Position numbers and translations under genes: made by a program. A DNA stretch of 64,000 bases from contig JAKLIQ010000005.1 in NCBI GenBank assembly GCA_022709525.1, positions 7,626-71,625 on the forward strand. The letters are read 5' to 3'. Source of the DNA: Candidatus Omnitrophota bacterium (GTDB lineage Bacteria; Omnitrophota; Omnitrophia; Omnitrophales; Aquincolibacteriaceae). Of this stretch, positions 27,936 to 64,000 are shown piece by piece. The stretch's first letter is position 1. Every line of letters starts with the position of its first letter. Under the pieces are notes generated by a model. The model searched no databases, was not told the origin of the DNA, and worked only from the letters and a program-made list of their open reading frames with translations.

Positions 27936-28021
27936 TTCGATACACCTCCTTCAAGATGAATAAACACAAAAAAGGCGGAGAGAACCGAAGCTCATCCCCG
28001 CCTTTTATGTTTTTAATACGG

Positions 28022-46072: not shown

Positions 46073-46110
46073 CTGCCGTCAAAATAAACCTTTTGCTGAA
46101 CGGCCTGGGC

Positions 46111-46389: not shown

Positions 46390-46432
46390 AACGGCCCCCT
46401 TCTTTCAAACTCAAATCATTTAATCAGAAATT

Positions 46433-48273: not shown

Positions 48274-51200
48274 TTACGCCATGCTCGCGAGAAGCTTGTT
48301 CGCCCGATCCATCTGGGAGATGAATTCCATCCCAAGCGCGGCTTTGTTCTCCGCCGTGAAATATGACGGCTTCCCGTCTGAAGAGCCTCCAAGCTCCCGA
48401 AGCAGTTTCTCGGCCGCGATTTGGAGACTCCCAGACAGTTTCCGTCCCAAGGCTCGGTGCAGAAGCGCCATGAGGAACAACTTCCTGCCGTCGATAAGCT
48501 CATCTTTGCCGGGCGCTTTAACCAGGATATCCGCATGTTCTTTCCATAGCGCCAGATTATGTTCAGATGCGATCTTGAGAGCGTCTTTTCCTATAAAAGG
48601 TTCTATACCCATAAAAGACATGTGCCGGACCGGAACATTCGTGATTTCCACGAGCGATCTTAGCTCCGGTGTAATCCCGAATGCTTGTTCGATCTCATGC
48701 GTCCGGATGGCGGGATTGAGGTTCACAAGCCGGATTTTGATCCGCTCCAAAAATTCATTCGGAAGCTTCTCTTCGAGCGTTTTCAAAATTTCCATGAAAC
48801 CCCAGCCTAAAAGCCGGACTCGGCCCTCATTTTTCTCCATTAAAGATTCCACATCGAGGTCTACCTTTAAAGTTGTCTGCCTTAAAAGGGTTTCAACCAA
48901 GGAAAGGGCCATCTTTGAATCAAAGGTTTCGATAACCCTTCCCACTGAAGGAATCTCAAACGAACGAGACTTATCTCCCCGAGCTGCGTGAAGTTCTTGA
49001 TTCTTTTCTCCCGTCACTGTCTCCGACTCGGAAGTTCCCGGACGCGCCTCGATCGTCTGGACCGCAAGTCTGGCCGCTTCCTTTAATTCCACGGCCTGGG
49101 CAAGCTGATTCAAGGAGCCGATGGCTCTTTGGTCTCCGATCGCGGCCAATGCCTGAATGGCCCCCAACCGGGTTGTAAGACTGGAACTTGCTAAGGCATT
49201 GATAAGCGGAAGAACAGCGGGCTTGCCTATCTTAATAAGTTCATAAATCGCCTCTTCCCTTTTCTTGAGCGCATCCTGCGCTTGATCAGGCGCTGTTATC
49301 TCACCCGATCCCAGAAGATTTTTTGCGATGGCTTCCTTAACGTCAAAAGCCTGGACATGTTCCCGCAATTCAGACCGGGCTTCGGATCTTGAGGAATCCT
49401 TCCGCTCTCTCGAGCGATTTCCGCTATCCGGAACGTCGTAACTCGTCTTTTCGCTTATTGCCTTCGAAGAATATCCCGAACCATCCAAGCCGCTTCCATT
49501 GAAGATCTTTCCCACGGCATCTCCAAGTTTTTCCCGTAATCTCGAAACTCCCGACTGCTTCAGAACCGGGGCATCGGGCGGCTCGGCAACCTTCGGCGCT
49601 TCGCCAGCGGAGGAGATGTCAGACGCTGGAGAAGGCTTAGGCGGTTCGGAAGGTTTTACTCGCTCCAAATCAATGCGCTTAAGCGAATCAAGTCCCACTT
49701 CCTCGATGGGCTTTTTATAAACGATAATATCGATTAAAAGCTTGGCGAGCACTTTGGGAAGTTCTCTCACCTCCGGCACAAGGATGTAAGGCCGGTACTG
49801 AGTCTTCACGTAATGCATCGCATCCCCGATTCCAATCCCAACCACTTTAATTCCTTTTCGCTTGGCTTCCTCTAAAGCGCTTGAAAGAGGAGTTTCGCCG
49901 TTCCCTTCGCCATCCGTAATCACGATCGCGATCCTGGATTCCCCGTCTTCGTATGTAAGCTGCCGCACCGCTTCCGATACGGCGGCTCCGTCATTGGTTC
50001 CGCCGCCCCGGTTAAAACTTGCAAGGATCTCGCTTAAAAGATATTCCTTTCGCAGATGCTTAAATTTCGAGCTGAAGTTTTTGTGCGTTGTCGGGGAATT
50101 CGAAAATCCAACGATCGAAAAATCAATATCAAGGCGAGAGAGCACCTCTTGAATGAGCACAAGGCTGTGGATCGCGTTGATCCTTTTGACGCTTTCATCC
50201 ATGGATCCGGATTCGTCCACCACCAGCGAAAATTTGAAGCTTCGTTTGACGGGTTTGATCCTACGCTTCCAGATTTTGGTGTCTCCCGTCACCGGCATGG
50301 TCATCGCTTTTCTTAAGTTAAGTTTCGTTCCGGTTTCGAAATCGCCTTTATAGGTCGGCTTGATGTCTTTATGAAGCTGATTCTCGAGAAGACCGAAAAG
50401 CTGCTGAACAAGAGGCGCCACCGGCGCAAAGTACTCGCTGTAATCTGTCGCTTCGAGAGGAACTATCTTTCTCGCTTCGATACTTTTGCTGAGGTACTGT
50501 TCCACTTGACGCGCATCTTGACCGAATTGCTTCCGGAATTCATCGTTTGGAACCGACTCAAGCGGCTGACCTTCTTGTGAAGCTCCTCTTTGGGTTTCTT
50601 GCGAAGCTGGCTCTCCCTGCGTTCCCATGTCCCGGGATTTATCAGAAGGACTCCCGCCTTTCGCCGCCGGTTTTGCGGAACGCGTCTGAGAGGATTGTTC
50701 CCCCGCTTGAGAAGATTGAGACCTGCCTTGCTTCTCAGGCCCTGCTGGAGACTTCTGGGCGGCCCCCTGAGCTTTTTGCTGGCCTTCCCGCGCACCATCC
50801 GATTTACCTTGCTCTTGCGACGAACCTTCTTGTTCGTTCACGGTACCATTGGGCATCCTTTCAAGAGGGCGATTTGCCATTGCGGAATTTCCCGTCTCTT
50901 TACCGCGTTTATCAATGGCGACATTTTCATTTTTAAGATCCCTCGGGAATTTCGGTTCAAGTTTCTCCGAATAGGATTTGGTTTTCTGCTCGAGCTCCCC
51001 CTCCGCCTGGCCTTGAGCGGATCCTTGAGCGCCCGAACGTCCTTGGCCCGTACGAGCCATTCCTTTCATCTGGTTTTGACGCGCTTCTTGGACAAGCTCG
51101 TCATAAACCGGACGAATTTTTTCTTCGAGGATCCGATTCATGCGATATTGCGCCTGCATGACGTCCACGTCGTTAGGATTCATGTCTACTAGAAATTGAA

Positions 51201-54200
51201 AAGACTCGCCGCGTCTGAAATCCAGAAGTTCTTGACCGAGCGCCGTGGTAAGGATGAATTCGTGCTCGCTTGGACGGGAGACCGCCTGAATGAAGCGATC
51301 CTTTATCAAAAGCTGCTTCCCCACCTTAGGCATGACGAGAAGCTGTCTTGCAAAACCTCTTAAGACGGGCCGCTCAAAAACGAGCTTGTCATCTTCACGC
51401 GAGACCCTCACGCTTCCCGGGATCTGGCTGTGCGCTTCCACCAAGTCTTTACGAGTTCGTTTGAGCGCTTGAATGACTTTCGGGTTCGTAATCGAAGGAT
51501 GCGGTGTTCCATAATACCACTCATGAATAAGGCCGAGTCCGTACTGGACATGAAGCGGAGTTTTGTAATCATCAAATTTTTCTTTTGGGTCTTCCGGAAA
51601 CGCCTTGCTGTAGAGCACCTTCAAATACCGGGCAGCATTGGGAGCCCGGTAAAGCGCCCAACGGTTGACACGCACATCCTCGACGGCATTGTGAAGGAAA
51701 TGGCGGTAGACGTTATCCGCCCATTCCCGCGTAAACCAGGTAATTCTCCTGTGGGATCCCTCGTGAATGGCTGCGCCTACGCTGTAACGCCAGCCCTTTG
51801 AAAGAAGCTCTTCTTCGGGATACATAATGGTCATTGGTTTTGTTTTCATGTTGATTTGCCATTGATCGCCCGGCTCCATCCGCACATTAAAGTCCGCTCC
51901 GAAGAATTGGCTCACAATCCTCGCGCGCTCGACCACTCGATTCATCAAATAGTTTCGGTAGTCCGTTTTCATGGTTTGCAGGAAAGAGCGCGGTTTTTCA
52001 CCCTCTTGCCGCGCCTCACTGCGCTGCATGCTTGCAACCCCATTTTGGTTAAAATAATGGGTCACGATTTCTTCTTTTTCGGCTTGCGTTTTATCATCCC
52101 CGACCCAAACGAGATGGAATTTATTGAGCATCGCCTGACTCATCATCTTCCGGCCTTCCATATGGTCCGGATTCATGGCGGCGAAGAGCCTGAAATTGGG
52201 ATGGACCTTTATCGTCCGGTTATTGTGCTCAGAAAGCGTAAGGGTCCGGTCATCGTCCAAAAGCGAATTGATACGCTCGATCACCTCGGGTTCCGCCAAA
52301 TTGATTTCGTCCAGGAGAATCCACCAGCCGCGTTCCATCGCCTGGATCAGAAACCCGTCCTGCCACTCGTAACGGAGCGTCTTTTTATCTTCGCTCGGAA
52401 GCATCCGCCCGATGATTTGTCCGGTATCGGACTGCCCGTCCAGATCAAGCGGAATAAAAGGAATATGAAGAAGGTCGGCCACTTCCTTGACAATAGCCGT
52501 CTTTCCGGTTCCCGTCGGGCCTTTGAATAAAATCGGCTCATTCTGGCGGGCCGCTCGAACGATCTTTCGCATCAGTTTTTTCGTGGATTGGGTGCGTTTG
52601 AGCGGAAGCGCCGGCACAAAGGTTTCCGACACGCCGTTTCGCTTGAAAAAGACGTCACCAAACCACACGCCGTCTTTTTCTTCACGAATTTGAACGTCTT
52701 CATCATCCTTGATCTTTTCCTGGAAAGCTTTCTCGAGATGTTCACGGATCCAATCCCGAAGGCGCGCTTCAAAGGCGACCCCATCGCTTAATCCGTCCGC
52801 GTAAATTTCAAATCCTTCGCGGACGGCGGCTTGATTCAAAGACTCTTTATGCGCCGGGTTCTGACGAATTTCCTTTACCCGGTCAAGCCAGCGGATCAAA
52901 TGTCTTACCGTATAAAGCACGATGGCGTCCGATTGGGATGAAGCCTCCGAATCTTTTCCAAAACCATTTCGGGCGAGCTTCCCGGCTTCCATGTGGAAAC
53001 GAAGCGCTTGTTCGATAAAATTCTGCGGAAGGCTTGCTCCATATTTTCCAAGCGCAATCGCGCGGAGTTCGGCTTCATCAAAGACGTCAATCCATTTTTG
53101 CCGGAAACGGTTCATAAGCGCGGGCGAGAAAAGCTGACGGCCCGCGTAGTTTTCCGCGGGGTTCATCGTTGCAAAAAGCCGGAAATCCGAATGGATCCTG
53201 AAAATCCGTTCCGAGTCAAGATGCTCCTTCATGAGCAGCTTGAGCGTTTCTCGATTGTTTTTGTTTCCTTTCCCAAGCTCCGTTTCCACTTCTTTTTCCA
53301 AAAGCGCGTCATAACGATCCGGCTTCATCCATTTCTCATCCTCATGCTCGGTGACGATCACAAACCCGTCATCATCAAGAAGCGAATTGAGGCGCTCGAC
53401 CACTTGCGCGGGCGCAAGATTGATTTCATCCAAAACAAGCCATTGGCCTTCTCTCATCGCCTGAATCAGCATCCCGTCCGACCAGGTGAATTCCCCCGCT
53501 TCATCGGGATGGTGTTTCCCGAGAAACTCCGTTTTCTCGGTCTGACCGCTCAAATTAAGTCTTAAGAAAGGACTGCGTGTGAGATAGGCGAGATAGCGAA
53601 TAAGCGATGTTTTTCCAGCCCCGGTTTCCCCCACTAAGAGCAAGGGATCGTCCAAAACAATCGACCGGGCCACTTTCTCAAGCTCACGGACGGTTTTAGG
53701 GGTGAGCACAAGGTTCGAGGACGCCTCAGTCGGCACAAGCGGTCTTGCCGAATCCGCGTGTTGATTAAGCTCAACACCGTCAATTTTGACGCGGCCGGCG
53801 CCTGCTTCGATCCGAACCTCATCCTCTTTTTTAGCTTCACCAAAAGTGCGCTCAAGAATCTGGTCGAAAAGCTTCCGGTCGTTTTCATGTTTCAGCTGAT
53901 CGCCATAAAAATAGCGGGCTCCATGAAGAGCCGCCTGATCCGTTCCCTCCTGATTTGAAAATTTCCCGATGAATCGCGCCCAACTTTTGAGCTCGCGCAT
54001 GCTGAAGCGGTAAGAGCTAAACGCTTTTTGCTCCAATTCATTTTTCGGCTGAGCCAGTTGGTTATGAAAATCCGTCATTTTGCGCGCAAGCGTGCTGCGA
54101 TCCGCAGCTGAAAGCGAGGTGTAACGAGCGAGATAACGGTTTAAGATTTCATGCACTTCCCCGTCCGGAAGACGCTCCGGAACCCAAAGCTCCTGGAACT

Positions 54201-57200
54201 TATTGCGCATGGCAAGACTCAGACGGTTACGGCCCGAATAGTGCTCGGGATTCATGGCGGCAAAGAGCCGGAAGCCGGGATGGATCGGAAAGATCCGGTT
54301 CGCTTCAAGTTCGGCTTTCGCCTCAATTTCCGCTTGAGCCGAAGGAACGCCTTTTTCGACAAGCTTGTCTTTTTTGGTTTTTACCTTATCCTCATAATCC
54401 CGGAGCGGAACATACTTTTCATTCTCGTTTTCCGTGATCACGATGGACCCGTCATCATCCAAGAGTGAGTTGATGCGCTCGAGAATGTCGGGTTCGGCTA
54501 AATTCACTTCGTCAAAAAGCACCCACCACCCGTTCTTGAGGGCTTTGGCGAGTTCGCCCGGATGCCAGGCAAACGTTGCTTTATCCGGCGTCGTTTTTCC
54601 ATGCTTCTCTCCGCCATCAACCGGCACAAATTTCCCGATAATTTCGCTCGTATCGGTTTGCGCATCAAGACTCATACGGATGAAGCTGTTGCCCGTGCGG
54701 TGAGCAAGATCCCTGATCAAGCTCGTTTTGGCGACTCCGGTTTCCCCTATCAGAAGAACGGGCTCCCGCATCGCGACTGACTTTGCGATCTTTTTAAGAA
54801 GTTTGCGGGTTGTTTTTGTTTGAAAAAGCTCGGCTTCGTTTCCCGGCACATGCGGAGTCACCGCGCGGTTGATATCCAGAGAAATATCGCCGAAAAAGAC
54901 TTTGTCATTCGCGGTTTTAATTTCATCATTGGCATCATCCAGCGCAAGCGGCTTGGACGCCGATTTTGCGGCAACGGGTTTTTCATCGTCCTTTGCGTCT
55001 TCGCGAAATACATTTTCAATGATGGCAAAACGGACGTCTCTTCGCTCGGAATCCTGACGGATCCGGTCCGTATAAACTTCGGTGAACTCTTGGGCAACCA
55101 GTTCCGTCGCGCCAAAAGGCCCCGCCTGAGCGATTCTCTTTTGAGCGCGCCGCATCACGCGGAGGAGATCCCGTAACGTAAAATAATAGGGATCGCTTTC
55201 CAGATTACCGACCCTTCGGTGGAACGCCGCGTCAGAAAGCAAAACGTGGCCTTGAATCAAAGATTTAAGCAGCGAAATTCCGAAAATGAAATTTCCAAGC
55301 TCATCCGGGAAGCGCTCATTTAAGATCGCTTTTTCTTCAAGATCCGTAAAATTATTCACCCATTTCACACGGAAACGGTTTAATAACGCCGGAGAGAGGA
55401 GTTTTCTGCCGGCGTAGTCCGAAGGATTCATGGCGGCAAAAAGCCGGAAATCGGGATGAATTCTTCTGAAGCCGTCTTCGTAAAGACGCTTTTTCGCGAG
55501 GGGCGAATCTTTCCAGACCGCTTCATATTCGGCGAGCTTCCTGTCGTAGCGATCCGCCGGAATCCAAATCACATTGCCTTGTTCGGTAAGCCTGAGTTCG
55601 CGGTCATCATCCAAAAGCGAATTGATCCGTTCGATCACCTGCGAATCCGCGAGATTGATTTCATCAAGGACAAGCCAATGACCCGCTTCCATCGCCTTCA
55701 CCAAGATACCGTCCACCCAGCGAAACCGGCCGTCAGGCCCGGGTTTAAAACCGCCCACAAATTCGGTTTTGTCGGTCTGTCCGTTTAGATTAAAACGCTT
55801 AAAATTATGACGCGTCTGAGCGGCTAAGTAACGGACCAAACTCGTTTTCCCGACCCCGGATTCTCCGATCAAAAGAACCGGATCGTTTAACTGGATCGCG
55901 AGCGCAAGTTTTTTCACATTCCGCACGGTGGAGAGCACCGGAATCAGGTTTGTCGATTCATCGTCTACCGGAACATCGTTTGAAACCGCTCCTTTTTTGC
56001 CATAAGGAATCAGGATGGTATTAATAAGAAGTCCTTGATCCGTTTTACGAATAACATTGCCTTTAAGCACGGCTTTAAAGTCTTCCTCGTTCAGATCGTC
56101 CTCTGTCTTTTCGAGTCTTTTGCCGATCTGATGGCGCAGTCCCCTTAAAAGATCCTGCGTTTCTTTGGAATATGGAATTTCCGGCTTAAAAAATGCGTCG
56201 GTTTTCGACGTTATCCGTTCGATCACGAATGAGCGAAGCGGAGCATAAATCATTTCCTTTAACATCAGAATCCCAACGGGAAGCAAAGAAGCGACAAAAT
56301 AGCTTGTGAAACCAAGCGCCGTCATCGTAATGGCCCAAAGAACGGGCGGCCATGCAAGCCAGATGGGAATGACCGGCAACGCATCCGCGCCGCTATGGGA
56401 AAGAAAGAACCAGCCCCAGACCGCGCCTAAAGCAACCGCGGAAAGCGAATAGAGTCTTGCGGCGGGATGCTTGAGAAGTTCCGAAACCGTCTGAGCTGAA
56501 ATGCCGGATCTTAAGAAATCACCGGTTCCTTTGCGTTCAAGAAGCGCGTAAAAATCATCCGGCGTAAGCGGAAGCGAGCGGTAACGTTTATTCAACAGAA
56601 GATACTGAGGGAGGTAAATCACGGCATATACCAATTTGAAAAGAAGCGCTAAACCAAGGCCGATCCCGGCTGAAACAGCCAGAAAACTCAAAGGATAGGA
56701 AATGAGCGCCAAAAGACCCGAGTAACCTTTCGCTCCCAAAAGATAAGGCGTCATAAAAACGGAAACGGCGCCAGCGACACATGCAATCGAGGCCAGCGTT
56801 CGCTTTTCTTTCAGGAACGCGAAAAGACCGAGGTAATCTCCGGCTTCTTTCGACTTAATGAGGCGCGAGATCGTTTCGCGGAAAGAAAGATTTCCAGGAC
56901 GCTTTTTGATCCGGTCATTGGCTTCTTTCTTCCAGTCTTGCCAACCAAGACGCTCGACCAAAACAAGGGCCGCGGTGAGGCGCGTCCCCTGGTCCGGATC
57001 CTCAAGGAACGGAACAATTTCTCCGATCATGGAAATAATCCTCCGGTGCCCCGCCACTTCAATCGCCGCTTTTCGGATATCGGGACGGGAATTAAAGAGA
57101 GCGGTTCGCGTGAGCGTTTCGACAACGGAAAGGTAATTTTCGTCTTGCGATTTTTTCTCGGGGATCGGAAGCATGGCAAATCCTCTCACGCCGTCCGCCG

Positions 57201-60200
57201 CCGTTTCAAAACGTTCCAGATTCTTCATGATTTGATTGAGGGCGTCGCGCGCCTTTTGAGGAAAATTACTCGTGAATTCCCAAAATCTCTTGCGAAGAAC
57301 AAGAAGCTCTATCCCCGCTTCGGTCTCGGCGAGCTCCGGATGCTCGCTCACGATCCTTTCCGCAATGCTTGCAAGGCCGCGTAATGATTCCTCCAAAATA
57401 TCCAGGCCCTGAATGTCCACTTCCTCGCCGCCAAGCACTCTCTGAGCTTCGCTCGTCATCACTTCCTTGAGCACCAGATCACGGAAGATTTCGCGGTCGG
57501 ATTCGCTTTGAAGACGGTCGCGGTAGATATAAAGGGCTCCCTCGATGATCGTCCGCGAAAGGCCCCACTCGCGCCGTCCCTCATCGGTTGCGTTCATCCT
57601 CTTCAGATAATCCAGGGTTTTCGTGTGCTGGAGAAGATCAGCCTCCTGTTCGGCCTTTTCAATGGAGTCAGGCGTGCTTCTAGGGATTTTCTCGCTGATT
57701 CTTCGGATATCTTCTTCAAGCTCAATCATCTGCCCCGCAAGCGTTTCTTTGCCGATCACGAGCGCTTCCGTGCGGATAAAGTCCGCCCAGTCCTTGATCT
57801 CACGGAGGCTGAAGGAGTAATCCTCGCCTTCGCCTCGAGCGAGTTCAAGCGCGCCGATCCGGTGTTCCCGGATGAGGCGAAGAACACCTTCATGAATTTG
57901 ACGCATCAAAGGGGCTGCTTTCCCTGCAAGATCATCAGGAAGACGCATGCCCGAAAAAAGAGCCGGTTCCGTCAAATAAAAACGAGCGACTTCATCGGTT
58001 TCTTCAGGTTTAAGTTCTCCTGAAACCCAAATTTCGGTAAATTTATTGCGGATCGCAAGACTCAAGCGCCTTCTCCCCGCATAGCCTTTCTCGGGGTTCA
58101 TGGCGGCAAAAAGCCGGAAATCGGGATGAATCCGGTGGTAGCCCCCGGTCACCATGCGGGCCTTAGCTTCTTGTTCCGCCGCATCTTTCGTTCTTCCCAG
58201 TTTTTGAAGCTCAAGTGAGTATCTTTCGAGGATCGAATCGAATTCAGACGAAGGGATATATTTTTCGCCCTTGTGCTCGGTAACCGTAAGGGAACCTTCA
58301 TCGTCGAAAAGCGAGTTGAGCCGCTCAAGAATTTCGGGCTCTGCCAGATTAAACTCATCGAGCAGCACCCAGTCACCCGCCTCCATCGCCCGCAGAAGAA
58401 TTCCGGGGGACCATTCGAAGGTTTTCGTGCCTTCCGCGGGTGAGTCTTTTCCGATCAGTTCCGAAGTATCCGTGAAGGCATCAAGATTCACCCGTTTAAA
58501 CTCTCTTCCGGTCCGGTTGGCCAAATAACGGACAAGTGAAGTCTTTGAAGCGCCCGTAGGACCGACCAAAAGCGGCCGCTCACCGGCGGATACGGCTCTC
58601 GCGATTTTATCGAGAGAACTCCGGGTCGCCGGAACAAGCGCGAGTTTTTCTTCGCGAAGGAGTGTACGTTTGGCAAGATCCACCGGCAGTATTGTTTCGC
58701 CGACCTGAAACATATGCCCGCCATTCAGGTCGCCCGCATCAATGACACGTCCATCGAACGGAAGCGGGAGAATTTTCCCGATCTTTTGGTTGAAAATCTC
58801 CCGGCTTCGTTCGCTCTGGATGCCGTCCCTGAAAATATAGGCCGCTTCAAGCCCGAGTTCTTTTTTAAATTCGCTCTCAGAACTCGACTTGGCGCGCCTT
58901 GCTTCCCATTCATGAAGCCGCTCGGCAAGTCTCAAGAAATGTCTCACCGTAAAACAATAGATCTCGCCGGTTTCCTTGGCGATCCGGCCGTCCGATCCGC
59001 TCAAAGTACGAAGCTCTTTATAAAGCGCCTCTCCAAGATCAAGCTGTTTTTCGTTCCACCCGTAACGGCCTTCGAGAATCATCCGGATGTCCGTAGCGGA
59101 AAGTTCGGGAATCCATTTCACCATAAATTTATTCATCATGGCTTCGGAGAGCCGCTTCCTTCCTTCGTACTCTTCTGAAGGCGGATTCATGGTGGCAAAG
59201 AGCCTGAAATTGGGATGGATTTTGAAAATCTTCCGGTTTTGAAGCTCACGCGATATTTCTTCAACGGAACGGCCGGGATTTTTTTTGAGTTCTTCGCGGA
59301 TGAGCCGGTCATAAGCGTGCGTTGAAATCCATTTCTCGCCTTCATGCTCGCTTAAAACAAGATAGCCTTCCGATTCAAGAAGGTAACGGACCCGCTCGAT
59401 CACCGCGGGATCGGCCAGATTGATCTCATCCAAAACGAGCCAATCCCCTGAGCGCATAGCTTCAATTAAAATCCCGTCATGCCACTCAAAACCCGCACTG
59501 CCGTCCGATCGCCGGACGGGCTTGTGACTGCCCAGAAATTCATCTTTGTCCGTCTGGCCGTTTAAGTTGAGTCTTAAGAAACCGTTGTTCGTAAGAGAAG
59601 CAAGGTGACGAATAAGCGAGGTTTTGCCCGCTCCGGTTTCACCGACAAGAAGAAGCGGATGATTGAGCGCTACGGCTTCGGCGATGGTCTCAAGGTCTCT
59701 GACCGTGCGCGGGATATGGATCATGCCGGACGTTTTCTTGAAAGGTACGCGGGAAGGCACCAGCGGATCGTAATTGACGGGAAGTTTTACGCGGCCAATC
59801 CGGACCGTTTGACCATCGGATGCGATTTTTCCAACCCCGTTCAATGCTTCATCTAAAACTCCCTCAGCGCTCATCCGAACCTTGTGCGTGGCCTCATCAA
59901 GCAGCGCGATCGTATCGAGATCCACTTCCTTCAGAGCGGCCAGAATTTCGGGTTGATCGCCATCCGAAAAGCCGCGGCTTCCATAGATATAAAAAGCGCC
60001 GTAAACGACCGCACGCGTTCTTCCCCAAACGGGAGCAAAGCGCTTATAAAAATCAACAAAACGCCTGAGATCTCTGATCGTAAGCGGTACGCTTTCACCG
60101 TGACCGTTGCCGTTAAGACGCGCATGGCGGATTTTTTCGTGAAGGATCACAATCGCCTTGGCTGCCACCGGGTCAAGTCCGTCCTGACGCATAAAACCCT

Positions 60201-63200
60201 GAACGGCGCGTTTTTCTCTAAGACGCGAGAAAAAGTTAAGGCCTTGTTTCAGGAGAATTTCCCGCCCACGCTGGTCAAAAAGCGCCGGAAGAATTTCCCT
60301 GGCAAAGTTATGGTTTAGTTTCTTCCCATTTTTGGAATCGGACGGAAGCGAACGGGCAAGATATTCAAGGAGCGCTGAAGCTGCCTCATCAAATCCTTTT
60401 TTCCGGGCAAGCTCAAGAATCTCATGAAACCCGCTCTGGTCCAGTCCCTTATCCGATTCAAGAACCCGGAGAACCTCGTCTTGCTCCATGGGTGAAAACG
60501 TGAGGAAACGCCTTACTTCCTGAAGAGAAACGGAAAATTCCTCGTAAAAATCCGTATGAGACGGGGGCGCTCTGGCGGGCAGGGCGTCCTCCATCAAGTG
60601 CCCAAGCTCGTGCTCAAGCTCCATCAAAAGAAGTTTAGAGGAACGAAAAAGATCGACGTCAAGCGTAATGACGGACGTCAGAGGCATTGCATGAGCCATA
60701 CGGTCGTGGTTTTGGACGATTTCGATTTCGCGGATCCCGCGAAGTGCCGGGTCATAGCCAAGACGGCGAACCTCCTCGATAACCTCAAGCAGACGCTCGG
60801 CATTACGCCGGCCAAATTTGCCGTTAGAAGTTTCTACGTCCTGATAACGGATACTTCCTTCAGCCGTAAGCCGAAAACGGGCAAGCTGCTCTGAGGAAAT
60901 GTGGTCCTCACGGACCGTTTTCAAAATGGGCGAGGTTTTACGGCGCTTTTTTAAATCCATCCTGAATTTAACGCTTCCCATCCCAAGACCCAAAAGCGCG
61001 ATGGAAAGCAGGTAATAAGGAAGGTAATCTTTACCGACATTAATGAGATCCGGCAAAGTTTTCTCGCGGAACCTCAGATTCTGAAAAACTTTCTGGGATT
61101 CCTGATAATCAACTTTCCAGAGAATGGAAAGCGCAACCCCCGCAAGTTCCGGATCGTCAGCCTGCCAGATCACTTTATAAAGAATATTAACCGTGTCATC
61201 TTTCTCAAAAGAACCTAATGATTCGATCAGAAGCGAGCGCATGGCGGGATCAGCCGTATTGCCAAGCTCGCGAACAAGCGCTTCTGCTCCGGCTTCTTTC
61301 ATCTCACGAAGCGCGGGCGTTGCCGCCTCGCGCCAATCCCGGTAACCGGATTGGACCGCGAAAAGAAGCGTCTTTGCTCCCATTTCTCCAAGCGACGTCA
61401 GATGCGTTTTCGCAAGGTCACGTTCACTAGAATTCTCTGAAAGAAGAAGGGTGGCTAAATAGGCGAGTGTTTTGGCGTCCTTGGAAGCGGTTACTTCCTC
61501 CCGCCCCTGCTTACGGAGATCATCGCTTGAGGAAAGGAGCTTTGTCCGAGTCCCCTCATTCGCCTGAAGAACACCCAGACGCTCCAGTGAAAAAGCGGCC
61601 GCAAGCCGGACATCGAAAGATGGATCGTTTAAATATTCCTCTTGAAGACGAATGATCCGAGGTTCCTTTTCAAACCGGCCAAGCGCGGAGGCGATCGCGC
61701 GTCTTACAAGCGGATCGGAGTCGTTTTTATGCTTTAAAAGATCTGCTATTGTTTTGGGAACGCTTAGTTTTCCAAGCGTAAGAGCGGCCTCGCGCCTCAC
61801 TTTAGAATCGGGGTCATCCAAAAGCTGTGACAGTTCTCCAACCGCCGGTTTTGCATCCAGAAGTCCTAATCCCGTCACCGCGGTCCGCCGTGTAAAAGCA
61901 TCCGGATCTTTCAGAAGAAGGACGAGCGACGCACCGCCGCGCGCGTCCCCGGAAAGGGCAAGGGCAATCGCGGCGTTTTTCCTGACACGCGGGCTTGAAT
62001 CTTCGAGGGCACGGATCAAAGAACCAATTGCGCTCGGATGAGGGAGTGAGGCCAAAGCAATCGCTGAGCGCCAACGAACGTCCTCGGTTTCATGAGTCAG
62101 TCCGCGGATGAGATAGACGGCGCTTGCTTCAGGTTTCCCGATTTGAATCAGCGCGCCTTGGGCCGCTTCACGCACTAAATAAGAACCGCTTCCAAAGGCT
62201 TCAACCAGCGCGGGGATGGCGGGCTCTCCGATTCCCGCGAGGACGTCAATTGCCGCTTTGCGCGTTGCGGGGTGCCAATGCTCGAGTTTCTGGATAACAA
62301 ATGGAACGGCAGGCCTACCGATCCTTATCAGAACCGAACGCGCATATTCACCCAGGGTTTTGTGAGACAAATCATCGATGACCACCGAAATGGAAGGCTC
62401 GCCGATGCTGCTGAGAGAATCCACAAGCGCTTCTTTACTCACCTTTGATTTTTCATCCGAAACGGTTTTTTTAAGCGCACCATAAAGGGCCTTGGCCGCG
62501 TCACGCTCATGAAAGCTTCCAAGCGAGCGAATGGCGACATGAACCACCTCATTATTTGAATCGTCGAGAAGACGGATCAAAGGCGCGAGCGCGGCTGAGT
62601 TTCCGCTTATTCCGGTGACGCGGGCGGAAATCTCGCGCACATTATCATTTTTGGACTCCATGCCCTCAAGAAATGGAGCGATATCTTTTTTGGATAAAAT
62701 AATCAAAGCATCGGTAAGCTCCTCTTTTGCCCGAGGCTGGCTATACGACGAAAAGTAATAATCGGCTGTCCCTTCGAGCAAGGGGCGGCTTGCGCTTGGG
62801 TCGCCGATCGCGGCAAGAAGTTTGGCGCCTGCAATAAGATCCAGCTTCTTTTCTTTAATCTGGGAAAGAAGCGGACCGACGGATTCAACTCCGAGCGCTT
62901 CCGGGTAACGGGCAAGCTCTCCGGTCGCAAACTGGGCAATGTTCTTCTCCGAATCCGAAAGCGCAAGTTTCAAGCTTGCGATCAGGTAATCGCTTCTCGT
63001 TTGAACTCGTTTTGAATCGCACGCCAGAATGCCAAGCAGGATCTCGACTTCTCTTATCGCGCGTCCTCCGGGGATTTTTTCAAGCGCCTGCGCAGATAGT
63101 TTTCGGCTCGTCCAATCGCTTGAAAAAAGAAGCTCTTTCAGCGGAGGGATGAACGACGTACTCCTCATATCCCCAAGAATCTGAATAGCTGCATAGCGGG

Positions 63201-64000
63201 TGGACGGATCGGTGGAACTTAAATTCGAAATCAGAATTTGCCGAGCCGAGGAATCGCCGGATTCATTTAAAAGTTTCGCGGCGTTCGCATGAGAAAGACC
63301 TGTTTCATCGGGTTTATTTCTTAAAACTTTTTCAAGTCTCTCAAGGACGGATCTTGAAGCTGCTCTCTTTGCCTCCGGCTTCAGCTCAAAAAGGCGGGCG
63401 ATCAACACGGGATCGCTGAGCTTCTCGAGTCCGGGTCCGAAATATCCCTTTTCGTAAAGCAAAATAAGAGCCCTGTCCCCCGCGTTGGTTTTGTCGCGAT
63501 TTGCCAAGTCAAAAAGCGCCGTTCTGGTTCTTTCCCCGTCATCCAATCTTCCAAGCGCTTCCGCCGAGGCAAAACGCACGTCGGAATCCTTATCTCCGGT
63601 TCTTTCAATCAGCTTTGGAATCGCGCTCCTCTCCCCAAACGCTCCCAGCACCTCAACCGCCGCCTTGCGAAGTTTCCATTCATCATGATTCAAAAACGGA
63701 TTAAGCTGATCGGCCTTGGATCGTACCAGCCTTACCGCGGCCTCGCGGGCTTTTGAATGAACGGAAGAAAGAGCGCTTGAGGAATCCGAAAGAACCGTCA
63801 TCAAAAAGGAAAGGTCGGTGGATGCGCCGATCGCGCCCAGTTCGTCCAGCGCCTTGAGAGCGCTTGGTGAGCTATAGTTCCAACGGTTTGATTGATAGAT
63901 TTCCTTGAGGATCGCAATGGCGCGAGGCTCCTTAAGCAAAACAAGGGCATCCTTCGCAAGTTGCGCCTCATCCGCCGGCGCTTCTTTTAAAATAAAAAGA
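48274..64000 (-). CDS. Giant (>5221 aa, 5' end off-window) midasin-like membrane protein: HEAT repeats, HExxH, 6x MoxR-type AAA+ modules, MIDAS/VWA, HEAT repeats
   Basis: Six Walker A motifs decoded at about 59620-59660, 58520-58570, 55830-55880, 54720-54765, 53590-53645 and 52500-52530 (GETGAGKT, GPTGASKT, GESGVGKT, GETGVAKT, GETGAGKT, GPTGTGKT). Each is followed by the LVLDE(I/F)NLA Walker B and the R(I/L)HP(N/D)FRLFA(A/T)MNP sensor block. DESGSM MIDAS motif at about 50200-50240. HELGH at about 60600-60640. TM cluster at about 56250-56850 plus a single TM at about 60965-61010. PBS-lyase HEAT repeats at both ends. The frame is open to position 64000, so the true start is upstream. Confidence 0.85.
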   Translation of the reverse strand, partial: LFILKEAPADEAQLAKDALVLLKEPRAIAILKEIYQSNRWNYSSPSALKALDELGAIGASTDLSFLMTVLSDSSSALSSVHSKAREAAVRLVRSKADQLNPFLNHDEWKLRKAAVEVLGAFGERSAIPKLIERTGDKDSDVRFASAEALGRLDDGERTRTALFDLANRDKTNAGDRALILLYEKGYFGPGLEKLSDPVLIARLFELKPEAKRAASRSVLERLEKVLRNKPDETGLSHANAAKLLNESGDSSARQILISNLSSTDPSTRYAAIQILGDMRSTSFIPPLKELLFSSDWTSRKLSAQALEKIPGGRAIREVEILLGILACDSKRVQTRSDYLIASLKLALSDSEKNIAQFATGELARYPEALGVESVGPLLSQIKEKKLDLIAGAKLLAAIGDPSASRPLLEGTADYYFSSYSQPRAKEELTDALIILSKKDIAPFLEGMESKNDNVREISARVTGISGNSAALAPLIRLLDDSNNEVVHVAIRSLGSFHERDAAKALYGALKKTVSDEKSKVSKEALVDSLSSIGEPSISVVIDDLSHKTLGEYARSVLIRIGRPAVPFVIQKLEHWHPATRKAAIDVLAGIGEPAIPALVEAFGSGSYLVREAAQGALIQIGKPEASAVYLIRGLTHETEDVRWRSAIALASLPHPSAIGSLIRALEDSSPRVRKNAAIALALSGDARGGASLVLLLKDPDAFTRRTAVTGLGLLDAKPAVGELSQLLDDPDSKVRREAALTLGKLSVPKTIADLLKHKNDSDPLVRRAIASALGRFEKEPRIIRLQEEYLNDPSFDVRLAAAFSLERLGVLQANEGTRTKLLSSSDDLRKQGREEVTASKDAKTLAYLATLLLSENSSERDLAKTHLTSLGEMGAKTLLFAVQSGYRDWREAATPALREMKEAGAEALVRELGNTADPAMRSLLIESLGSFEKDDTVNILYKVIWQADDPELAGVALSILWKVDYQESQKVFQNLRFREKTLPDLINVGKDYLPYYLLSIALLGLGMGSVKFRMDLKKRRKTSPILKTVREDHISSEQLARFRLTAEGSIRYQDVETSNGKFGRRNAERLLEVIEEVRRLGYDPALRGIREIEIVQNHDRMAHAMPLTSVITLDVDLFRSSKLLLMELEHELGHLMEDALPARAPPSHTDFYEEFSVSLQEVRRFLTFSPMEQDEVLRVLESDKGLDQSGFHEILELARKKGFDEAASALLEYLARSLPSDSKNGKKLNHNFAREILPALFDQRGREILLKQGLNFFSRLREKRAVQGFMRQDGLDPVAAKAIVILHEKIRHARLNGNGHGESVPLTIRDLRRFVDFYKRFAPVWGRTRAVVYGAFYIYGSRGFSDGDQPEILAALKEVDLDTIALLDEATHKVRMSAEGVLDEALNGVGKIASDGQTVRIGRVKLPVNYDPLVPSRVPFKKTSGMIHIPRTVRDLETIAEAVALNHPLLLVGETGAGKTSLIRHLASLTNNGFLRLNLNGQTDKDEFLGSHKPVRRSDGSAGFEWHDGILIEAMRSGDWLVLDEINLADPAVIERVRYLLESEGYLVLSEHEGEKWISTHAYDRLIREELKKNPGRSVEEISRELQNRKIFKIHPNFRLFATMNPPSEEYEGRKRLSEAMMNKFMVKWIPELSATDIRMILEGRYGWNEKQLDLGEALYKELRTLSGSDGRIAKETGEIYCFTVRHFLRLAERLHEWEARRAKSSSESEFKKELGLEAAYIFRDGIQSERSREIFNQKIGKILPLPFDGRVIDAGDLNGGHMFQVGETILPVDLAKRTLLREEKLALVPATRSSLDKIARAVSAGERPLLVGPTGASKTSLVRYLANRTGREFKRVNLDAFTDTSELIGKDSPAEGTKTFEWSPGILLRAMEAGDWVLLDEFNLAEPEILERLNSLFDDEGSLTVTEHKGEKYIPSSEFDSILERYSLELQKLGRTKDAAEQEAKARMVTGGYHRIHPDFRLFAAMNPEKGYAGRRRLSLAIRNKFTEIWVSGELKPEETDEVARFYLTEPALFSGMRLPDDLAGKAAPLMRQIHEGVLRLIREHRIGALELARGEGEDYSFSLREIKDWADFIRTEALVIGKETLAGQMIELEEDIRRISEKIPRSTPDSIEKAEQEADLLQHTKTLDYLKRMNATDEGRREWGLSRTIIEGALYIYRDRLQSESDREIFRDLVLKEVMTSEAQRVLGGEEVDIQGLDILEESLRGLASIAERIVSEHPELAETEAGIELLVLRKRFWEFTSNFPQKARDALNQIMKNLERFETAADGVRGFAMLPIPEKKSQDENYLSVVETLTRTALFNSRPDIRKAAIEVAGHRRIISMIGEIVPFLEDPDQGTRLTAALVLVERLGWQDWKKEANDRIKKRPGNLSFRETISRLIKSKEAGDYLGLFAFLKEKRTLASIACVAGAVSVFMTPYLLGAKGYSGLLALISYPLSFLAVSAGIGLGLALLFKLVYAVIYLPQYLLLNKRYRSLPLTPDDFYALLERKGTGDFLRSGISAQTVSELLKHPAARLYSLSAVALGAVWGWFFLSHSGADALPVIPIWLAWPPVLWAITMTALGFTSYFVASLLPVGILMLKEMIYAPLRSFVIERITSKTDAFFKPEIPYSKETQDLLRGLRHQIGKRLEKTEDDLNEEDFKAVLKGNVIRKTDQGLLINTILIPYGKKGAVSNDVPVDDESTNLIPVLSTVRNVKKLALAIQLNDPVLLIGESGVGKTSLVRYLAAQTRHNFKRFNLNGQTDKTEFVGGFKPGPDGRFRWVDGILVKAMEAGHWLVLDEINLADSQVIERINSLLDDDRELRLTEQGNVIWIPADRYDRKLAEYEAVWKDSPLAKKRLYEDGFRRIHPDFRLFAAMNPSDYAGRKLLSPALLNRFRVKWVNNFTDLEEKAILNERFPDELGNFIFGISLLKSLIQGHVLLSDAAFHRRVGNLESDPYYFTLRDLLRVMRRAQKRIAQAGPFGATELVAQEFTEVYTDRIRQDSERRDVRFAIIENVFREDAKDDEKPVAAKSASKPLALDDANDEIKTANDKVFFGDISLDINRAVTPHVPGNEAELFQTKTTRKLLKKIAKSVAMREPVLLIGETGVAKTSLIRDLAHRTGNSFIRMSLDAQTDTSEIIGKFVPVDGGEKHGKTTPDKATFAWHPGELAKALKNGWWVLFDEVNLAEPDILERINSLLDDDGSIVITENENEKYVPLRDYEDKVKTKKDKLVEKGVPSAQAEIEAKAELEANRIFPIHPGFRLFAAMNPEHYSGRNRLSLAMRNKFQELWVPERLPDGEVHEILNRYLARYTSLSAADRSTLARKMTDFHNQLAQPKNELEQKAFSSYRFSMRELKSWARFIGKFSNQEGTDQAALHGARYFYGDQLKHENDRKLFDQILERTFGEAKKEDEVRIEAGAGRVKIDGVELNQHADSARPLVPTEASSNLVLTPKTVRELEKVARSIVLDDPLLLVGETGAGKTSLIRYLAYLTRSPFLRLNLSGQTEKTEFLGKHHPDEAGEFTWSDGMLIQAMREGQWLVLDEINLAPAQVVERLNSLLDDDGFVIVTEHEDEKWMKPDRYDALLEKEVETELGKGNKNNRETLKLLMKEHLDSERIFRIHSDFRLFATMNPAENYAGRQLFSPALMNRFRQKWIDVFDEAELRAIALGKYGASLPQNFIEQALRFHMEAGKLARNGFGKDSEASSQSDAIVLYTVRHLIRWLDRVKEIRQNPAHKESLNQAAVREGFEIYADGLSDGVAFEARLRDWIREHLEKAFQEKIKDDEDVQIREEKDGVWFGDVFFKRNGVSETFVPALPLKRTQSTKKLMRKIVRAARQNEPILFKGPTGTGKTAIVKEVADLLHIPFIPLDLDGQSDTGQIIGRMLPSEDKKTLRYEWQDGFLIQAMERGWWILLDEINLAEPEVIERINSLLDDDRTLTLSEHNNRTIKVHPNFRLFAAMNPDHMEGRKMMSQAMLNKFHLVWVGDDKTQAEKEEIVTHYFNQNGVASMQRSEARQEGEKPRSFLQTMKTDYRNYLMNRVVERARIVSQFFGADFNVRMEPGDQWQINMKTKPMTIMYPEEELLSKGWRYSVGAAIHEGSHRRITWFTREWADNVYRHFLHNAVEDVRVNRWALYRAPNAARYLKVLYSKAFPEDPKEKFDDYKTPLHVQYGLGLIHEWYYGTPHPSITNPKVIQALKRTRKDLVEAHSQIPGSVRVSREDDKLVFERPVLRGFARQLLVMPKVGKQLLIKDRFIQAVSRPSEHEFILTTALGQELLDFRRGESFQFLVDMNPNDVDVMQAQYRMNRILEEKIRPVYDELVQEARQNQMKGMARTGQGRSGAQGSAQGQAEGELEQKTKSYSEKLEPKFPRDLKNENVAIDKRGKETGNSAMANRPLERMPNGTVNEQEGSSQEQGKSDGAREGQQKAQGAAQKSPAGPEKQGRSQSSQAGEQSSQTRSAKPAAKGGSPSDKSRDMGTQGEPASQETQRGASQEGQPLESVPNDEFRKQFGQDARQVEQYLSKSIEARKIVPLEATDYSEYFAPVAPLVQQLFGLLENQLHKDIKPTYKGDFETGTKLNLRKAMTMPVTGDTKIWKRRIKPVKRSFKFSLVVDESGSMDESVKRINAIHSLVLIQEVLSRLDIDFSIVGFSNSPTTHKNFSSKFKHLRKEYLLSEILASFNRGGGTNDGAAVSEAVRQLTYEDGESRIAIVITDGEGNGETPLSSALEEAKRKGIKVVGIGIGDAMHYVKTQYRPYILVPEVRELPKVLAKLLIDIIVYKKPIEEVGLDSLKRIDLERVKPSEPPKPSPASDISSAGEAPKVAEPPDAPVLKQSGVSRLREKLGDAVGKIFNGSGLDGSGYSSKAISEKTSYDVPDSGNRSRERKDSSRSEARSELREHVQAFDVKEAIAKNLLGSGEITAPDQAQDALKKREEAIYELIKIGKPAVLPLINALASSSLTTRLGAIQALAAIGDQRAIGSLNQLAQAVELKEAARLAVQTIEARPGTSESETVTGEKNQELHAARGDKSRSFEIPSVGRVIETFDSKMALSLVETLLRQTTLKVDLDVESLMEKNEGRVRLLGWGFMEILKTLEEKLPNEFLERIKIRLVNLNPAIRTHEIEQAFGITPELRSLVEITNVPVRHMSFMGIEPFIGKDALKIASEHNLALWKEHADILVKAPGKDELIDGRKLFLMALLHRALGRKLSGSLQIAAEKLLRELGGSSDGKPSYFTAENKAALGMEFISQMDRANKLLASMA

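What the first reader, a model, noticed from the sequence alone, without database searches (positions are those of the whole stretch)
48274..64000. Bacterial membrane-embedded midasin-like giant: six concatenated MoxR/dynein-type AAA+ modules plus MIDAS domain in one ORF of more than 5221 aa
Seen in sequence. Six tandem AAA_5-type modules each have Walker A (G(E/P)(T/S)G(A/V/T)(G/S/A)KT), Walker B (W(L/V)(L/V)LDE(I/F)NLA) and the conserved RxHPxFRLFAxMNP sensor segment. A ~170-aa Q/G/S/A/E/K-rich low-complexity linker follows, then a VWA domain with an intact DxSxS MIDAS motif (DESGSM). From established knowledge, six AAA modules, an acidic or low-complexity linker and a C-terminal MIDAS is the eukaryotic midasin/Rea1 architecture. 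Single MoxR ATPases normally act in trans with separate VWA partners, and such a pair sits on this same island at 26468-29071. This protein adds features absent from midasin. It has about 1000 aa of N-terminal PBS-lyase HEAT repeats. It has an HELGH zinc-metallopeptidase-like motif before AAA1. It has a 5-6-helix membrane segment inserted between AAA2 and AAA3. It has a second HEAT array after the VWA domain. The domain content (HExxH, MoxR-like AAA, VWA) resembles a mega-fusion of the small MoxR/VWA-HExxH pair encoded 20 kb away. Function is unknown. The membrane anchoring and adjacency to a glycoside-hydrolase-like gene and the conjugation machinery suggest a cell-envelope or cell-contact mechanoenzyme.
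Basis: partly seen in the sequence, partly recalled or inferred. Interest (0 to 1): 0.9.

Follow-up and report, generated by a model that had tools for sequence, protein, structure and literature searches.

The report
Membrane-anchored single-chain six-AAA MIDAS giant
An uncultured Omnitrophota bacterium encodes an 8,308-residue membrane protein that joins six motor ATPase units and their metal-site adaptor in one chain, a layout so far discussed only for the eukaryotic ribosome-assembly motor midasin.

Summary
The minus-strand frame is open from 48274 to the window end (5,241 aa). An identical JGI contig calls the whole gene at 8,308 aa. Four independent assemblies match the window gap-free over 36433-58262, which includes about 10 kb of the gene. 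The protein has six intact AAA_5 modules, a hydrophobic block between AAA2 and AAA3, a low-complexity linker and a complete MIDAS VWA domain.

The best reading is a covalent 6:1 fusion of a MoxR-class motor with its adaptor. The C-terminal half (zincin-like domain, linker, pre-MIDAS segment, VWA) is homologous end to end to stand-alone CobT-like partners of CobS-like ATPases. The modules match single CobS-like ATPases at least as well as midasin modules. Midasin remains the only known protein with the same overall layout, shares the pre-MIDAS signature, and its lid families are the ones that match.

The family is rare: 9 loci in 185,579 species genomes, plus soluble variants, one from an archaeal MAG. 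No paper found describes it. The client and the biological role are unknown. It is a new variant of a known kind, with high evolutionary interest.

The parts
48274..64000 (-). Giant ORF, C-terminal 5,241 aa plus stop. The N-terminal ~3,067 aa lie beyond the window end.
   Evidence: Open frame. The full product is called at 8,308 aa on an identical JGI contig. Four assemblies are identical over 36433-58262.
61030..63999 (-). HEAT / PBS-lyase-type repeat array (aa 1-990 of the window part), inferred to be extracytoplasmic.
   Evidence: HEAT_2 E 7.8e-85 in 8 stretches, plus HEAT_PBS. Sidedness is inferred from the positive-inside rule at the next helix.
60964..61026 (-). Predicted transmembrane helix TM0 (aa 992-1012), followed by KFRMDLKKRRKTSP.
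   Evidence: Sequence and hydropathy (peak 1.42, moderate). Conserved in P0002, P0151 and P0005.
60355..60894 (-). First HExxH domain (HELGH at nt 60598-60612), with a minigluzincin-like fold.
59800..60147 (-). Lid-like helical bundle preceding AAA1, possibly a remnant of a further module.
59035..59730 (-). AAA1 (aa 1424-1655), Walker A GETGAGKT.
   Evidence: Its lid hits AAA_lid_7 at 22.2 bits.
57946..58650 (-). AAA2 (aa 1784-2018), Walker A GPTGASKT.
56245..56796 (-). Hydrophobic membrane block (aa 2402-2585), inside a ~550-aa insert between AAA2 and AAA3.
   Evidence: Only segments with Kyte-Doolittle score at or above 1.6 in the protein. The same block lies between AAA2 and AAA3 in all eight GTDB loci long enough to show it and in P0002, P0151 and P0005.
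55276..55953 (-). AAA3 (aa 2683-2908), Walker A GESGVGKT.
   Evidence: Its lid hits AAA_lid_7 at 29.2 bits, above the cut-off.
54100..54834 (-). AAA4 (aa 3056-3300), Walker A GETGVAKT, Walker B WWVLFDE.
   Evidence: Its lid hits AAA_lid_5, AAA_lid_7 and MDN1_4th weakly.
53011..53718 (-). AAA5 (aa 3428-3663), Walker A GETGAGKT.
52021..52608 (-). AAA6 (aa 3798-3993), Walker A GPTGTGKT. It lacks the ~45-aa insert before sensor 1.
51046..51987 (-). Second HExxH domain (HEGSH at nt 51751-51765), CobT_N-like: zincin core, beta-rich subdomain and a long helix.
50425..51045 (-). Low-complexity Q/E/S/G/A/K linker, about 200 aa, charge-neutral.
   Evidence: Composition.
50230..50364 (-). Pre-MIDAS segment (aa 4546-4590, KGDFETGTKLNLRK...KIWKRRIKPVKR). 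It occupies the position of the CobT shaft.
   Evidence: The signature is shared with midasin and with the phage CobT-like protein. The shaft role is inferred from CobST structures (paper 10.64898/2026.07.21.739949).
49660..50412 (-). VWA domain with a complete MIDAS (D4595, S4597, S4599, T, D).
   Evidence: Pfam VWA E 2.2e-15, VWA_CoxE, CobT_C. Residues located.
48277..49302 (-). C-terminal region: one or two weak HEAT-like repeats (49015-49302), then a ~240-aa domain of unknown function.
   Evidence: HEAT_2 24.7 bits, below the cut-off. By eye, an (I/L)RLVN-type motif recurs in P0002 (weaker in P0005).

Best explanation
This gene encodes a membrane-anchored, single-chain version of a MoxR-class AAA+ motor plus its VWA adaptor.

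Shown. Six CobS-like AAA_5 modules are concatenated. They are followed in the same chain by one CobT-like adaptor: a zincin-like N-domain, a flexible linker, a pre-MIDAS segment and a MIDAS VWA domain. The overall layout is the one known from eukaryotic midasin.

Inferred mechanism.
- The ring is held there by one helix before the first HExxH domain and by an even number of helices inserted between AAA2 and AAA3.
- The ~200-residue linker lets the VWA domain fold back onto the ring.
- The pre-MIDAS segment enters the ring pore, as the CobT shaft does in CobS hexamers.
- The MIDAS metal site grips an acidic residue of a client protein.
- ATP-driven asymmetry of the ring then rotates or pulls the adaptor and remodels or extracts the client.

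The large HEAT solenoids, inferred to lie outside the cytoplasm, act as scaffolds that place the machine at the envelope. The two HExxH domains either dock onto lid domains, as CobT_N does, or cleave the client. The client is unknown.
For: Anatomy.
- Six AAA_5 modules have intact Walker A, Walker B and sensor motifs.
- MIDAS is complete.
- The only hydrophobic block lies between AAA2 and AAA3.

Homology of the C-terminal half.
- A 478-aa phage CobT-like protein, encoded next to a CobS-like ATPase, aligns with the window's VWA region at 108 bits. Eukaryotic midasin gives 52-58 bits.
- Its N-domain matches the second HExxH domain at hhalign probability 96.4%.

Homology of the modules.
- Single AAA_5 plus CbbQ_C proteins score 145-151 bits, midasin modules 110-132.
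- Midasin is nevertheless the best solved match (E 2.6e-149).
- The lids hit the midasin lid families and not CbbQ_C.
- The pre-MIDAS signature is shared with midasin.

Mechanistic precedent.
- In CobST, a fragment directly before the MIDAS inserts into the CobS ring pore, CobT_N binds a lid domain, and the client binds near the MIDAS (paper 10.64898/2026.07.21.739949).
- NorQD works by twisting (abstract of PMC13036017).

Conservation.
- All eight of the nine GTDB loci long enough to show it have six Walker A motifs, the membrane block and the second HExxH. The six whose ORF reaches the MIDAS region have a DESGSM MIDAS.
- Modules correspond one to one with orthologue P0002.

Reality. Four assemblies are identical.
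Against: - Ring closure with a 550-residue membrane insert is therefore untested.
- The number of membrane passes was not predicted with a dedicated tool.
- The client is unknown, and no conserved neighbouring gene points to one.
- Similarity to bona fide CobT is weak: CobT_C scores only 19.8 bits, and no CobT chain came up in the PDB sequence searches. The shaft analogy therefore rests on position and on the phage CobT-like intermediate.
- AAA2 and AAA4 have S or A in place of the last glycine of the P-loop.
- The HExxH residues are invariant. This fits real catalysis better than a purely structural role.
Confidence: 0.6

Rival explanations
1. It is a true prokaryotic midasin. Either it is the sister or ancestor of eukaryotic midasin, so that the single-chain six-AAA plus MIDAS layout predates eukaryotes, or it is a midasin gene acquired from a eukaryote and later decorated.
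For: - After about a dozen prokaryotic relatives, the next roughly 140 best hits among 1.84 billion representatives are midasin-sized proteins (2,000-6,100 aa) at E ~1e-145; the four I read look like eukaryotic midasins.
- Midasin is the top solved match for both the ring and the VWA.
- The lids hit Pfam midasin lid families.
- JGI pipelines label related fragments 'midasin'.
- A BLOSUM-distance NJ tree groups odd and even modules of both lineages together.
Against: - There is no position-by-position correspondence: every prokaryotic module hits eukaryotic AAA3 or AAA5 best. This argues against recent transfer of a whole midasin.
- The odd/even split has only 29-36% bootstrap support, and the Walker A signatures suggest the opposite pairing.
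- The modules and the VWA are closer to split CobS/CobT-like proteins than to midasin.
- The ~1,700-residue midasin linker and the acidic region are absent.
- The high rank of midasins partly reflects summing over six modules.
Confidence: 0.15
2. It is an ATP-dependent membrane protease, comparable in logic to FtsH. The ring unfolds or extracts substrates recruited by the MIDAS, and one or both HExxH zincin domains cleave them.
For: - Both HExxH motifs and a downstream acidic residue are invariant across relatives at 22-37% identity.
- MoxR-vWA-peptidase degradation systems have been proposed before (PMC3495828).
Against: - The second HExxH domain is homologous to the N-domain of CobT-like adaptors. 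In CobT that domain serves as a docking module on the ATPase lid, and viral cobT is said to be misannotated as a peptidase (PMC8651126).
- No Pfam peptidase family matches either domain.
Confidence: 0.15
3. It is a metal- or cofactor-insertion chaperone for a membrane or envelope enzyme. It would work like CobSTN, NorQD or CbbQO, with the fused format only fixing the stoichiometry.
For: - The nearest split relatives are annotated CobS/CobT.
- The window VWA hits CobT_C and VWA_CoxE weakly.
- Known MoxR-VWA pairs of this branch act in metal-centre maturation (abstract of PMC13036017).
Against: - No CobN-like or other candidate client gene lies nearby, and neighbours are not conserved.
- Thousands of residues of HEAT repeats and membrane anchoring have no counterpart in those systems.
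- Similarity to genuine CobT is marginal.
Confidence: 0.08
4. The ORF is an assembly artefact, for example collapsed or chained copies of a single MoxR gene.
For: The modules are repetitive, 38-51% identical at protein level, and the source is a metagenome.
Against: - Four assemblies from different samples are 99.995-100% identical and gap-free over about 10 kb of the gene plus flanks.
- The modules are too diverged to be collapsed by an assembler.
- Orthologues with one-to-one module correspondence exist in other genomes.
Confidence: 0.01

Closest known systems
Eukaryotic midasin (Rea1 / Mdn1)
   Same: - Six AAA_5-type modules in one chain, then a flexible region, then a C-terminal MIDAS VWA.
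- Shared pre-MIDAS signature, (K/R)GD(F/Y)xTG(K/x)xLNxxK ... KIWxRRxKPxKR, followed by DxSxSM.
- The lids match Pfam midasin lid families.
- Best solved match, E 2.6e-149.
   Different: - No ~1,700-residue linker domain, and the tether is charge-neutral, not acidic.
- No module-by-module orthology.
- This protein is membrane-embedded and carries HEAT arrays and two HExxH domains.
- Bacteria have no pre-60S particles and no known Ytm1 or Rsa4 counterparts (background knowledge).
Viral and bacterial cobST-like two-gene cassettes (AAA_5 plus CbbQ_C ATPase, with a 'CobT' zincin-VWA partner)
   Same: - The adaptor architecture is the same from end to end: HExxH N-domain, linker, pre-MIDAS segment, DESGSM VWA.
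- These are the closest single-module ATPases found, at 145-151 bits.
   Different: - There the ATPase and the adaptor are separate small genes. Here six diverged ATPase modules and the adaptor form one polypeptide.
- The lids here are midasin-type, not CbbQ_C.
- The cassette proteins show no HEAT domains; membrane segments were not checked.
CobSTN cobaltochelatase motor, and the CbbQO and NorQD remodellers
   Same: The same logic applies: a hexameric MoxR-class ring plus one VWA/MIDAS adaptor whose segment enters the pore, with the client held near the MIDAS (PMC13036017 abstract).
   Different: - Sequence similarity is only distant: CbbQ 51 bits, NorQ 43, CobS 40, NorD E 0.34.
- No chelatase or oxidoreductase client gene is nearby.
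Omnitrophota giant membrane proteins ('Archaeovorins', bioRxiv 10.1101/2023.11.21.568195)
   Same: - Same phylum.
- Very long ORF with several membrane helices and HEAT_2 arrays, which that study predicts to be extracellular.
- That study lists AAA_5 among its 20 most frequent domains.
   Different: - Those proteins exceed 30,000 aa, and most carry SecA-like domains.
- The preprint gives no six-AAA plus MIDAS or midasin-like reading.
- No SecA domain was found in the window part.

Membership tests
Midasin (Rea1/Mdn1) | Six tandem AAA_5-type modules in one polypeptide | tested here: met
   Pfam AAA_5 six times; motifs intact.
Midasin (Rea1/Mdn1) | C-terminal MIDAS VWA with the midasin-type N-terminal extension | tested here: met
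   Best PDB hits are midasin MIDAS domains (E 4.7e-11) with an aligned pre-MIDAS signature. The signature is not exclusive: a phage CobT-like protein has it too.
Midasin (Rea1/Mdn1) | Midasin-type AAA lid domains | tested here: inconclusive
   AAA_lid_7 scores 29.2 bits for the AAA3 lid, above the cut-off. The other lids score 17-22 bits, just below it. None hits CbbQ_C.
Midasin (Rea1/Mdn1) | A ~1,700-residue linker domain after AAA6, followed by an acidic D/E-rich region | tested here: not met
   In aa 3934-4600 the only significant PDB match is to the MIDAS region. About 310 residues of zincin-like domain and a charge-neutral low-complexity linker stand in their place.
Midasin (Rea1/Mdn1) | Position-specific orthology of AAA1 to AAA6 | tested here: not met
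   All six modules hit eukaryotic AAA3 or AAA5 best, whereas eukaryotic midasins match each other one to one.
Midasin (Rea1/Mdn1) | Removes UBL-domain assembly factors from pre-60S ribosomes | not testable with these tools
   A functional property. The host is a bacterium.
MoxR-class AAA+ with VWA adaptor, cobST-like subtype | AAA_5 ATPase of the CbbQ/NorQ/CobS branch | tested here: met
   Single AAA_5 plus CbbQ_C proteins score 145-151 bits against the modules.
MoxR-class AAA+ with VWA adaptor, cobST-like subtype | Adaptor with an HExxH/M48C-like N-domain, a linker, a pre-MIDAS segment and a VWA | tested here: met
   hhalign probability 96.4% for the N-domain. The VWA scores 108 bits and shares the DESGSM motif.
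MoxR-class AAA+ with VWA adaptor, cobST-like subtype | ATPase and adaptor are separate proteins that assemble as a homo-hexamer plus adaptor | tested here: not met
   Here all seven units are in one reading frame.
MoxR plus DUF2201 (VWA-metallopeptidase) pairs, as on the neighbouring element | Sequence relationship to DUF2201_N / DUF2201 | tested here: not met
   hhalign probability 0.2%. BLASTP finds no significant hit, and the local MoxR scores at most 38 bits.
Omnitrophota 'Archaeovorin' giant proteins | More than 30,000 aa, many membrane helices, SecA-like DEAD domain | tested here: not met
   The product is 8,308 aa. No SecA family appears in the listed Pfam hits for the window part. The N-terminal 3,067 aa were not seen.

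The most novel reading that the evidence does not exclude
The single-chain six-AAA ring with a tethered MIDAS is not a eukaryotic invention. These PVC-bacterial and archaeal giants would be the prokaryotic sister or source lineage of midasin, and so of the midasin/dynein style of motor. In Omnitrophota the ring would further act as a transmembrane force transducer, coupling cytoplasmic ATP hydrolysis to the extracytoplasmic HEAT solenoids used in cell-cell contact.
Probability: 0.2. Interest if true: 0.9.

Novelty: new variant of a known kind. Interest (0 to 1): 0.7.

Why it matters
Published accounts place the origin of a six-AAA single chain early in eukaryotic evolution, from a MoxR-like prokaryotic precursor (PMC3495828). 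This family shows that prokaryotes also built covalent six-module rings with the adaptor attached. Split (cobST-like) and fused forms can be compared side by side.

That gives a concrete test set for how midasin-type motors arose. It also offers a natural single-chain system in which each of the six ATPase sites can be mutated individually, which homo-hexameric MoxR proteins do not allow.

The finding also assigns a readable mechanistic core to one class of the poorly understood giant membrane proteins of Omnitrophota.

Tried and rejected
- Word-indexed searches with the second HExxH domain and with the VWA returned only a few fragments.
- The upstream 9 kb could not be recovered.
- The first alignment was too diverse for the search for related loci.
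- Pfam, NCBIfam and PADLOC name neither the whole protein nor either HExxH domain.
- The idea that the second HExxH domain is a DUF2201_N relative was rejected.
- The idea that the two HExxH domains are paralogues was rejected.
- The AFDB Foldseek library was unavailable. PDB Foldseek on the second HExxH model gave nothing significant.
- The odd/even module phylogeny shared with eukaryotes looked attractive in one NJ tree but has only 29-36% bootstrap support. I do not rely on it.
- A conserved partner gene downstream was sought and not found.
- The first bootstrap script timed out.
Full report
**Observation**

The minus-strand frame read from nt 63999 is open for 5,241 codons, down to the stop at 48274-48276. 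The ORF listing reports it as 5,221 aa from the first TTG. The start is not in the window. The downstream glucoamylase-like protein occurs with identical sequence on nine contigs. On JGI contig Ga0116153_10000303 (69,070 bp) the adjoining gene is called with an 8,308-residue product. About 3,067 N-terminal residues are therefore missing here.

Loci from four assemblies (three JGI samples and one ENA assembly) are 99.995-100% identical to window 36433-58262 without a gap. This excludes a one-off chimeric or collapsed assembly for aa ~1913-5241.

Other window proteins are identical to NCBI entries from a 'Candidatus Omnitrophota bacterium' MAG (HOW87073-HOW87077, HOW87334).

**Anatomy**

Numbering takes aa 1 at nt 63999.

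- **HEAT array and first helix.** Pfam finds HEAT_2 in eight stretches over the first ~990 residues (E 7.8e-85). A moderately hydrophobic helix follows at aa 992-1012 and is itself followed by KFRMDLKKRRK. By the positive-inside rule, the HEAT array lies outside the cytoplasm and everything after the helix lies inside. This is an inference.
- **Six AAA_5 modules.** Walker A motifs sit at aa 1453, 1813, 2712, 3085, 3457 and 3827. All six have Walker B D-E and the HPxFRLFAxMNP segment. The modules are 38-51% identical to one another. AAA1, 3 and 5 resemble each other most, as do AAA2 and 4.
- **Membrane block.** A ~550-residue insert between AAA2 and AAA3 holds the only strongly hydrophobic block of the protein, aa 2402-2585. 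Both flanks must be cytoplasmic for a ring to form, so an even number of passes is expected.
- **After AAA6.** Then come a ~200-residue charge-neutral low-complexity linker, the segment KGDFETGTKLNLRK...KIWKRRIKPVKR, a VWA domain with complete MIDAS residues, and a C-terminal region with at most weak HEAT similarity.

**Relatives**

An exhaustive HMMER search of 1.84 billion representatives with AAA5, AAA6 and the second HExxH domain found about a dozen prokaryotic relatives. The rest of the 150 listed hits are midasin-sized proteins at E ~1e-145; the four I read look like eukaryotic midasins.

- The named prokaryotic relatives are almost all Candidatus Omnitrophota 'AAA family ATPase' entries. 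One 4,005-aa soluble version comes from a 'Thermoproteota archaeon' MAG.
- P0002 (7,557 aa), P0151 (7,592 aa) and P0005 (6,708 aa) share the whole layout: both HExxH domains, the membrane block and a DxSxS MIDAS.
- A scan of one genome per species (185,579 species) found nine loci, in Omnitrophota MAGs and in MAGs labelled Planctomycetia or Planctomycetales.
- All eight loci long enough to show it have six Walker A motifs, hydrophobic segments between AAA2 and AAA3, and the second HExxH. The six whose ORF reaches the MIDAS region have a DESGSM MIDAS.
- Downstream genes differ in each locus examined. Gene neighbourhood says nothing about function, and the adjacency to the conjugative element in the window is incidental.

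**What it is related to**

*Evidence pointing to midasin.*

- It is by far the best solved match to the ring (6or5, E 2.6e-149, against 2.4e-13 for CbbQ).
- It is the best solved match to the VWA, with an aligned signature before the MIDAS.
- The lids of AAA1, 3, 4 and 5 hit Pfam midasin lid families, and none hits CbbQ_C.

*Evidence that limits the midasin claim.*

- Module-by-module scores show no positional correspondence with eukaryotic midasin. Every module hits eukaryotic AAA3 or AAA5 best. Correspondence with orthologue P0002 is strictly one to one.
- One NJ tree united odd and even modules of both lineages. Bootstrap support is only 29-36%, and the Walker A signatures suggest the opposite pairing. 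I treat this as unresolved.
- Single-module AAA_5 plus CbbQ_C proteins, annotated CobS or MoxR-like, score 145-151 bits against the window modules. Midasin modules score 110-132.

*The split relatives.*

- Two of these single-module proteins lie on contigs that look phage-derived (one carries terminase and portal genes, the other many small unannotated ORFs), adjacent to or about 2.4 kb from a ~480-residue VWA protein.
- That VWA protein has an N-terminal HExxH domain, a pre-MIDAS GKYRTGKKLNKRR...LFQRRLEP segment and VVDESGSM.
- It matches the window's VWA region at 108 bits, against 52-58 bits for midasin.
- Its N-domain matches the profile of the second HExxH domain with hhalign probability 96.4% over 161 columns.
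- Such viral cobST clusters are known, and their cobT is often annotated as a peptidase (PMC8651126).
- By contrast, the MoxR/DUF2201 pair on the neighbouring conjugative element is unrelated beyond the superfamily level.

The giant is therefore best described as six CobS-like modules plus one CobT-like adaptor in one chain.

**Mechanism (inferred)**

A recent CobSTN study reports the following (bioRxiv 10.64898/2026.07.21.739949):

- CobT has an M48C-like N-domain that binds a CobS lid.
- A fragment immediately before the MIDAS inserts as a shaft into the pore of the nucleotide-bound CobS ring.
- The client CobN sits next to the MIDAS.

NorQD is reported to act by twisting (abstract of PMC13036017).

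The window protein has the same parts in the same order after AAA6. I infer that the six modules form one ring at the inner face of the membrane. The tethered VWA docks with its pre-MIDAS segment in the pore, and ATP hydrolysis moves a MIDAS-bound client.

The two HExxH domains have invariant metal-ligand motifs. Real proteolysis of the client is therefore a serious alternative to a purely docking role.

Shown here:

- the parts and their order;
- their conservation across relatives;
- their homologies.

Not shown here:

- ring closure;
- membrane topology;
- ATPase or peptidase activity;
- the identity of the client.

**Known or new**

In the searchable library I found no description of prokaryotic six-AAA plus MIDAS proteins.

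- Zhang and Aravind place the origin of the six-tandem AAA protein early in eukaryotic evolution (PMC3495828).
- A preprint on Omnitrophota giant genes lists AAA_5 and HEAT_2 among frequent domains without further reading.
- A 2026 Omnitrophota preprint and the 2023 Nature Microbiology study do not mention AAA, MoxR or dynein.
- Searches for 'midasin-like', COG5271 and midasin with Asgard gave nothing relevant.
- Automated JGI annotation does call some fragments 'midasin', so pipelines see the similarity even though it is not discussed.

I rate it a new variant of a known kind: a MoxR/VWA machine in a fused, membrane-embedded, midasin-like format.

**Caveats**

- Two Cavalier-Smith papers that mention midasin are only partly held. 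Garbarino and Gibbons 2002 is not held.
- BLAST and HMMER bit scores of single modules are a crude proxy for phylogeny.

Noticed in passing
[not shown]
   Followed up: partly
window ~3800-37336: Conjugative-element genes: a recombinase (3800-5467), a TraC/VirB4-like ATPase (18407-21001), a coupling protein (34749-36560), a Replic_Relax protein, RadC, and a MoxR (28022-29071) plus DUF2201_N/DUF2201 (26468-27688) pair. Proteins at least 90% identical to this MoxR occur in many MAGs, including one labelled Harrisonbacteria.
   Followed up: partly
L017 1126-6165: In a relative from JGI 3300045917, the ORF ending in the MIDAS VWA overlaps the start of a further long ORF. That ORF has SecA DEAD-like, SecA preprotein-binding and HEAT domains, the combination reported for Omnitrophota giant proteins.
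   Followed up: partly
L006 1-19702: In this Omnitrophota MAG the reading frame continues about 2,770 residues beyond the MIDAS. The extension carries another HELGH motif and two more hydrophobic segments, so the C-terminal extension varies widely within the family.
   Followed up: no
P0006 (MFC1753351.1) and P0023: Apparently soluble variants exist. One, of 4,005 aa, comes from a 'Thermoproteota archaeon' MAG and has no hydrophobic block. Another, of 4,471 aa, has three near-identical AAA pairs separated by helical repeats. A Candidatus Nitrosotenuis vWA fragment is 38% identical to the window VWA.
   Followed up: partly
L015 6001-8564 and L014 6001-10932: Contigs that look phage-derived (L015 has terminase and portal genes) carry a CobS-like AAA_5 plus CbbQ_C ATPase and a VWA protein. 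The N-domain of the L015 VWA protein has a clear HExxH...IEDxRIE motif and matches the giant's second HExxH domain; the L014 protein keeps only the downstream ExxRIE. This may explain why viral cobT is often annotated as a peptidase.
   Followed up: yes
window 59800-60147: A helical bundle resembling an AAA lid, with the motif xTIRDLRRFxxF, precedes AAA1 without a preceding ATPase core. It may be a remnant of a seventh module, or a lid that completes the ring interface.
   Followed up: partly
window ~45800-46390, between the glucoamylase-like and LacI genes: Gene calls on the identical contigs list two small genes not examined here: a DUF1232 protein (92 aa) and an HTH_3/HTH_31 regulator (91 aa) on the opposite strand.
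   Followed up: no
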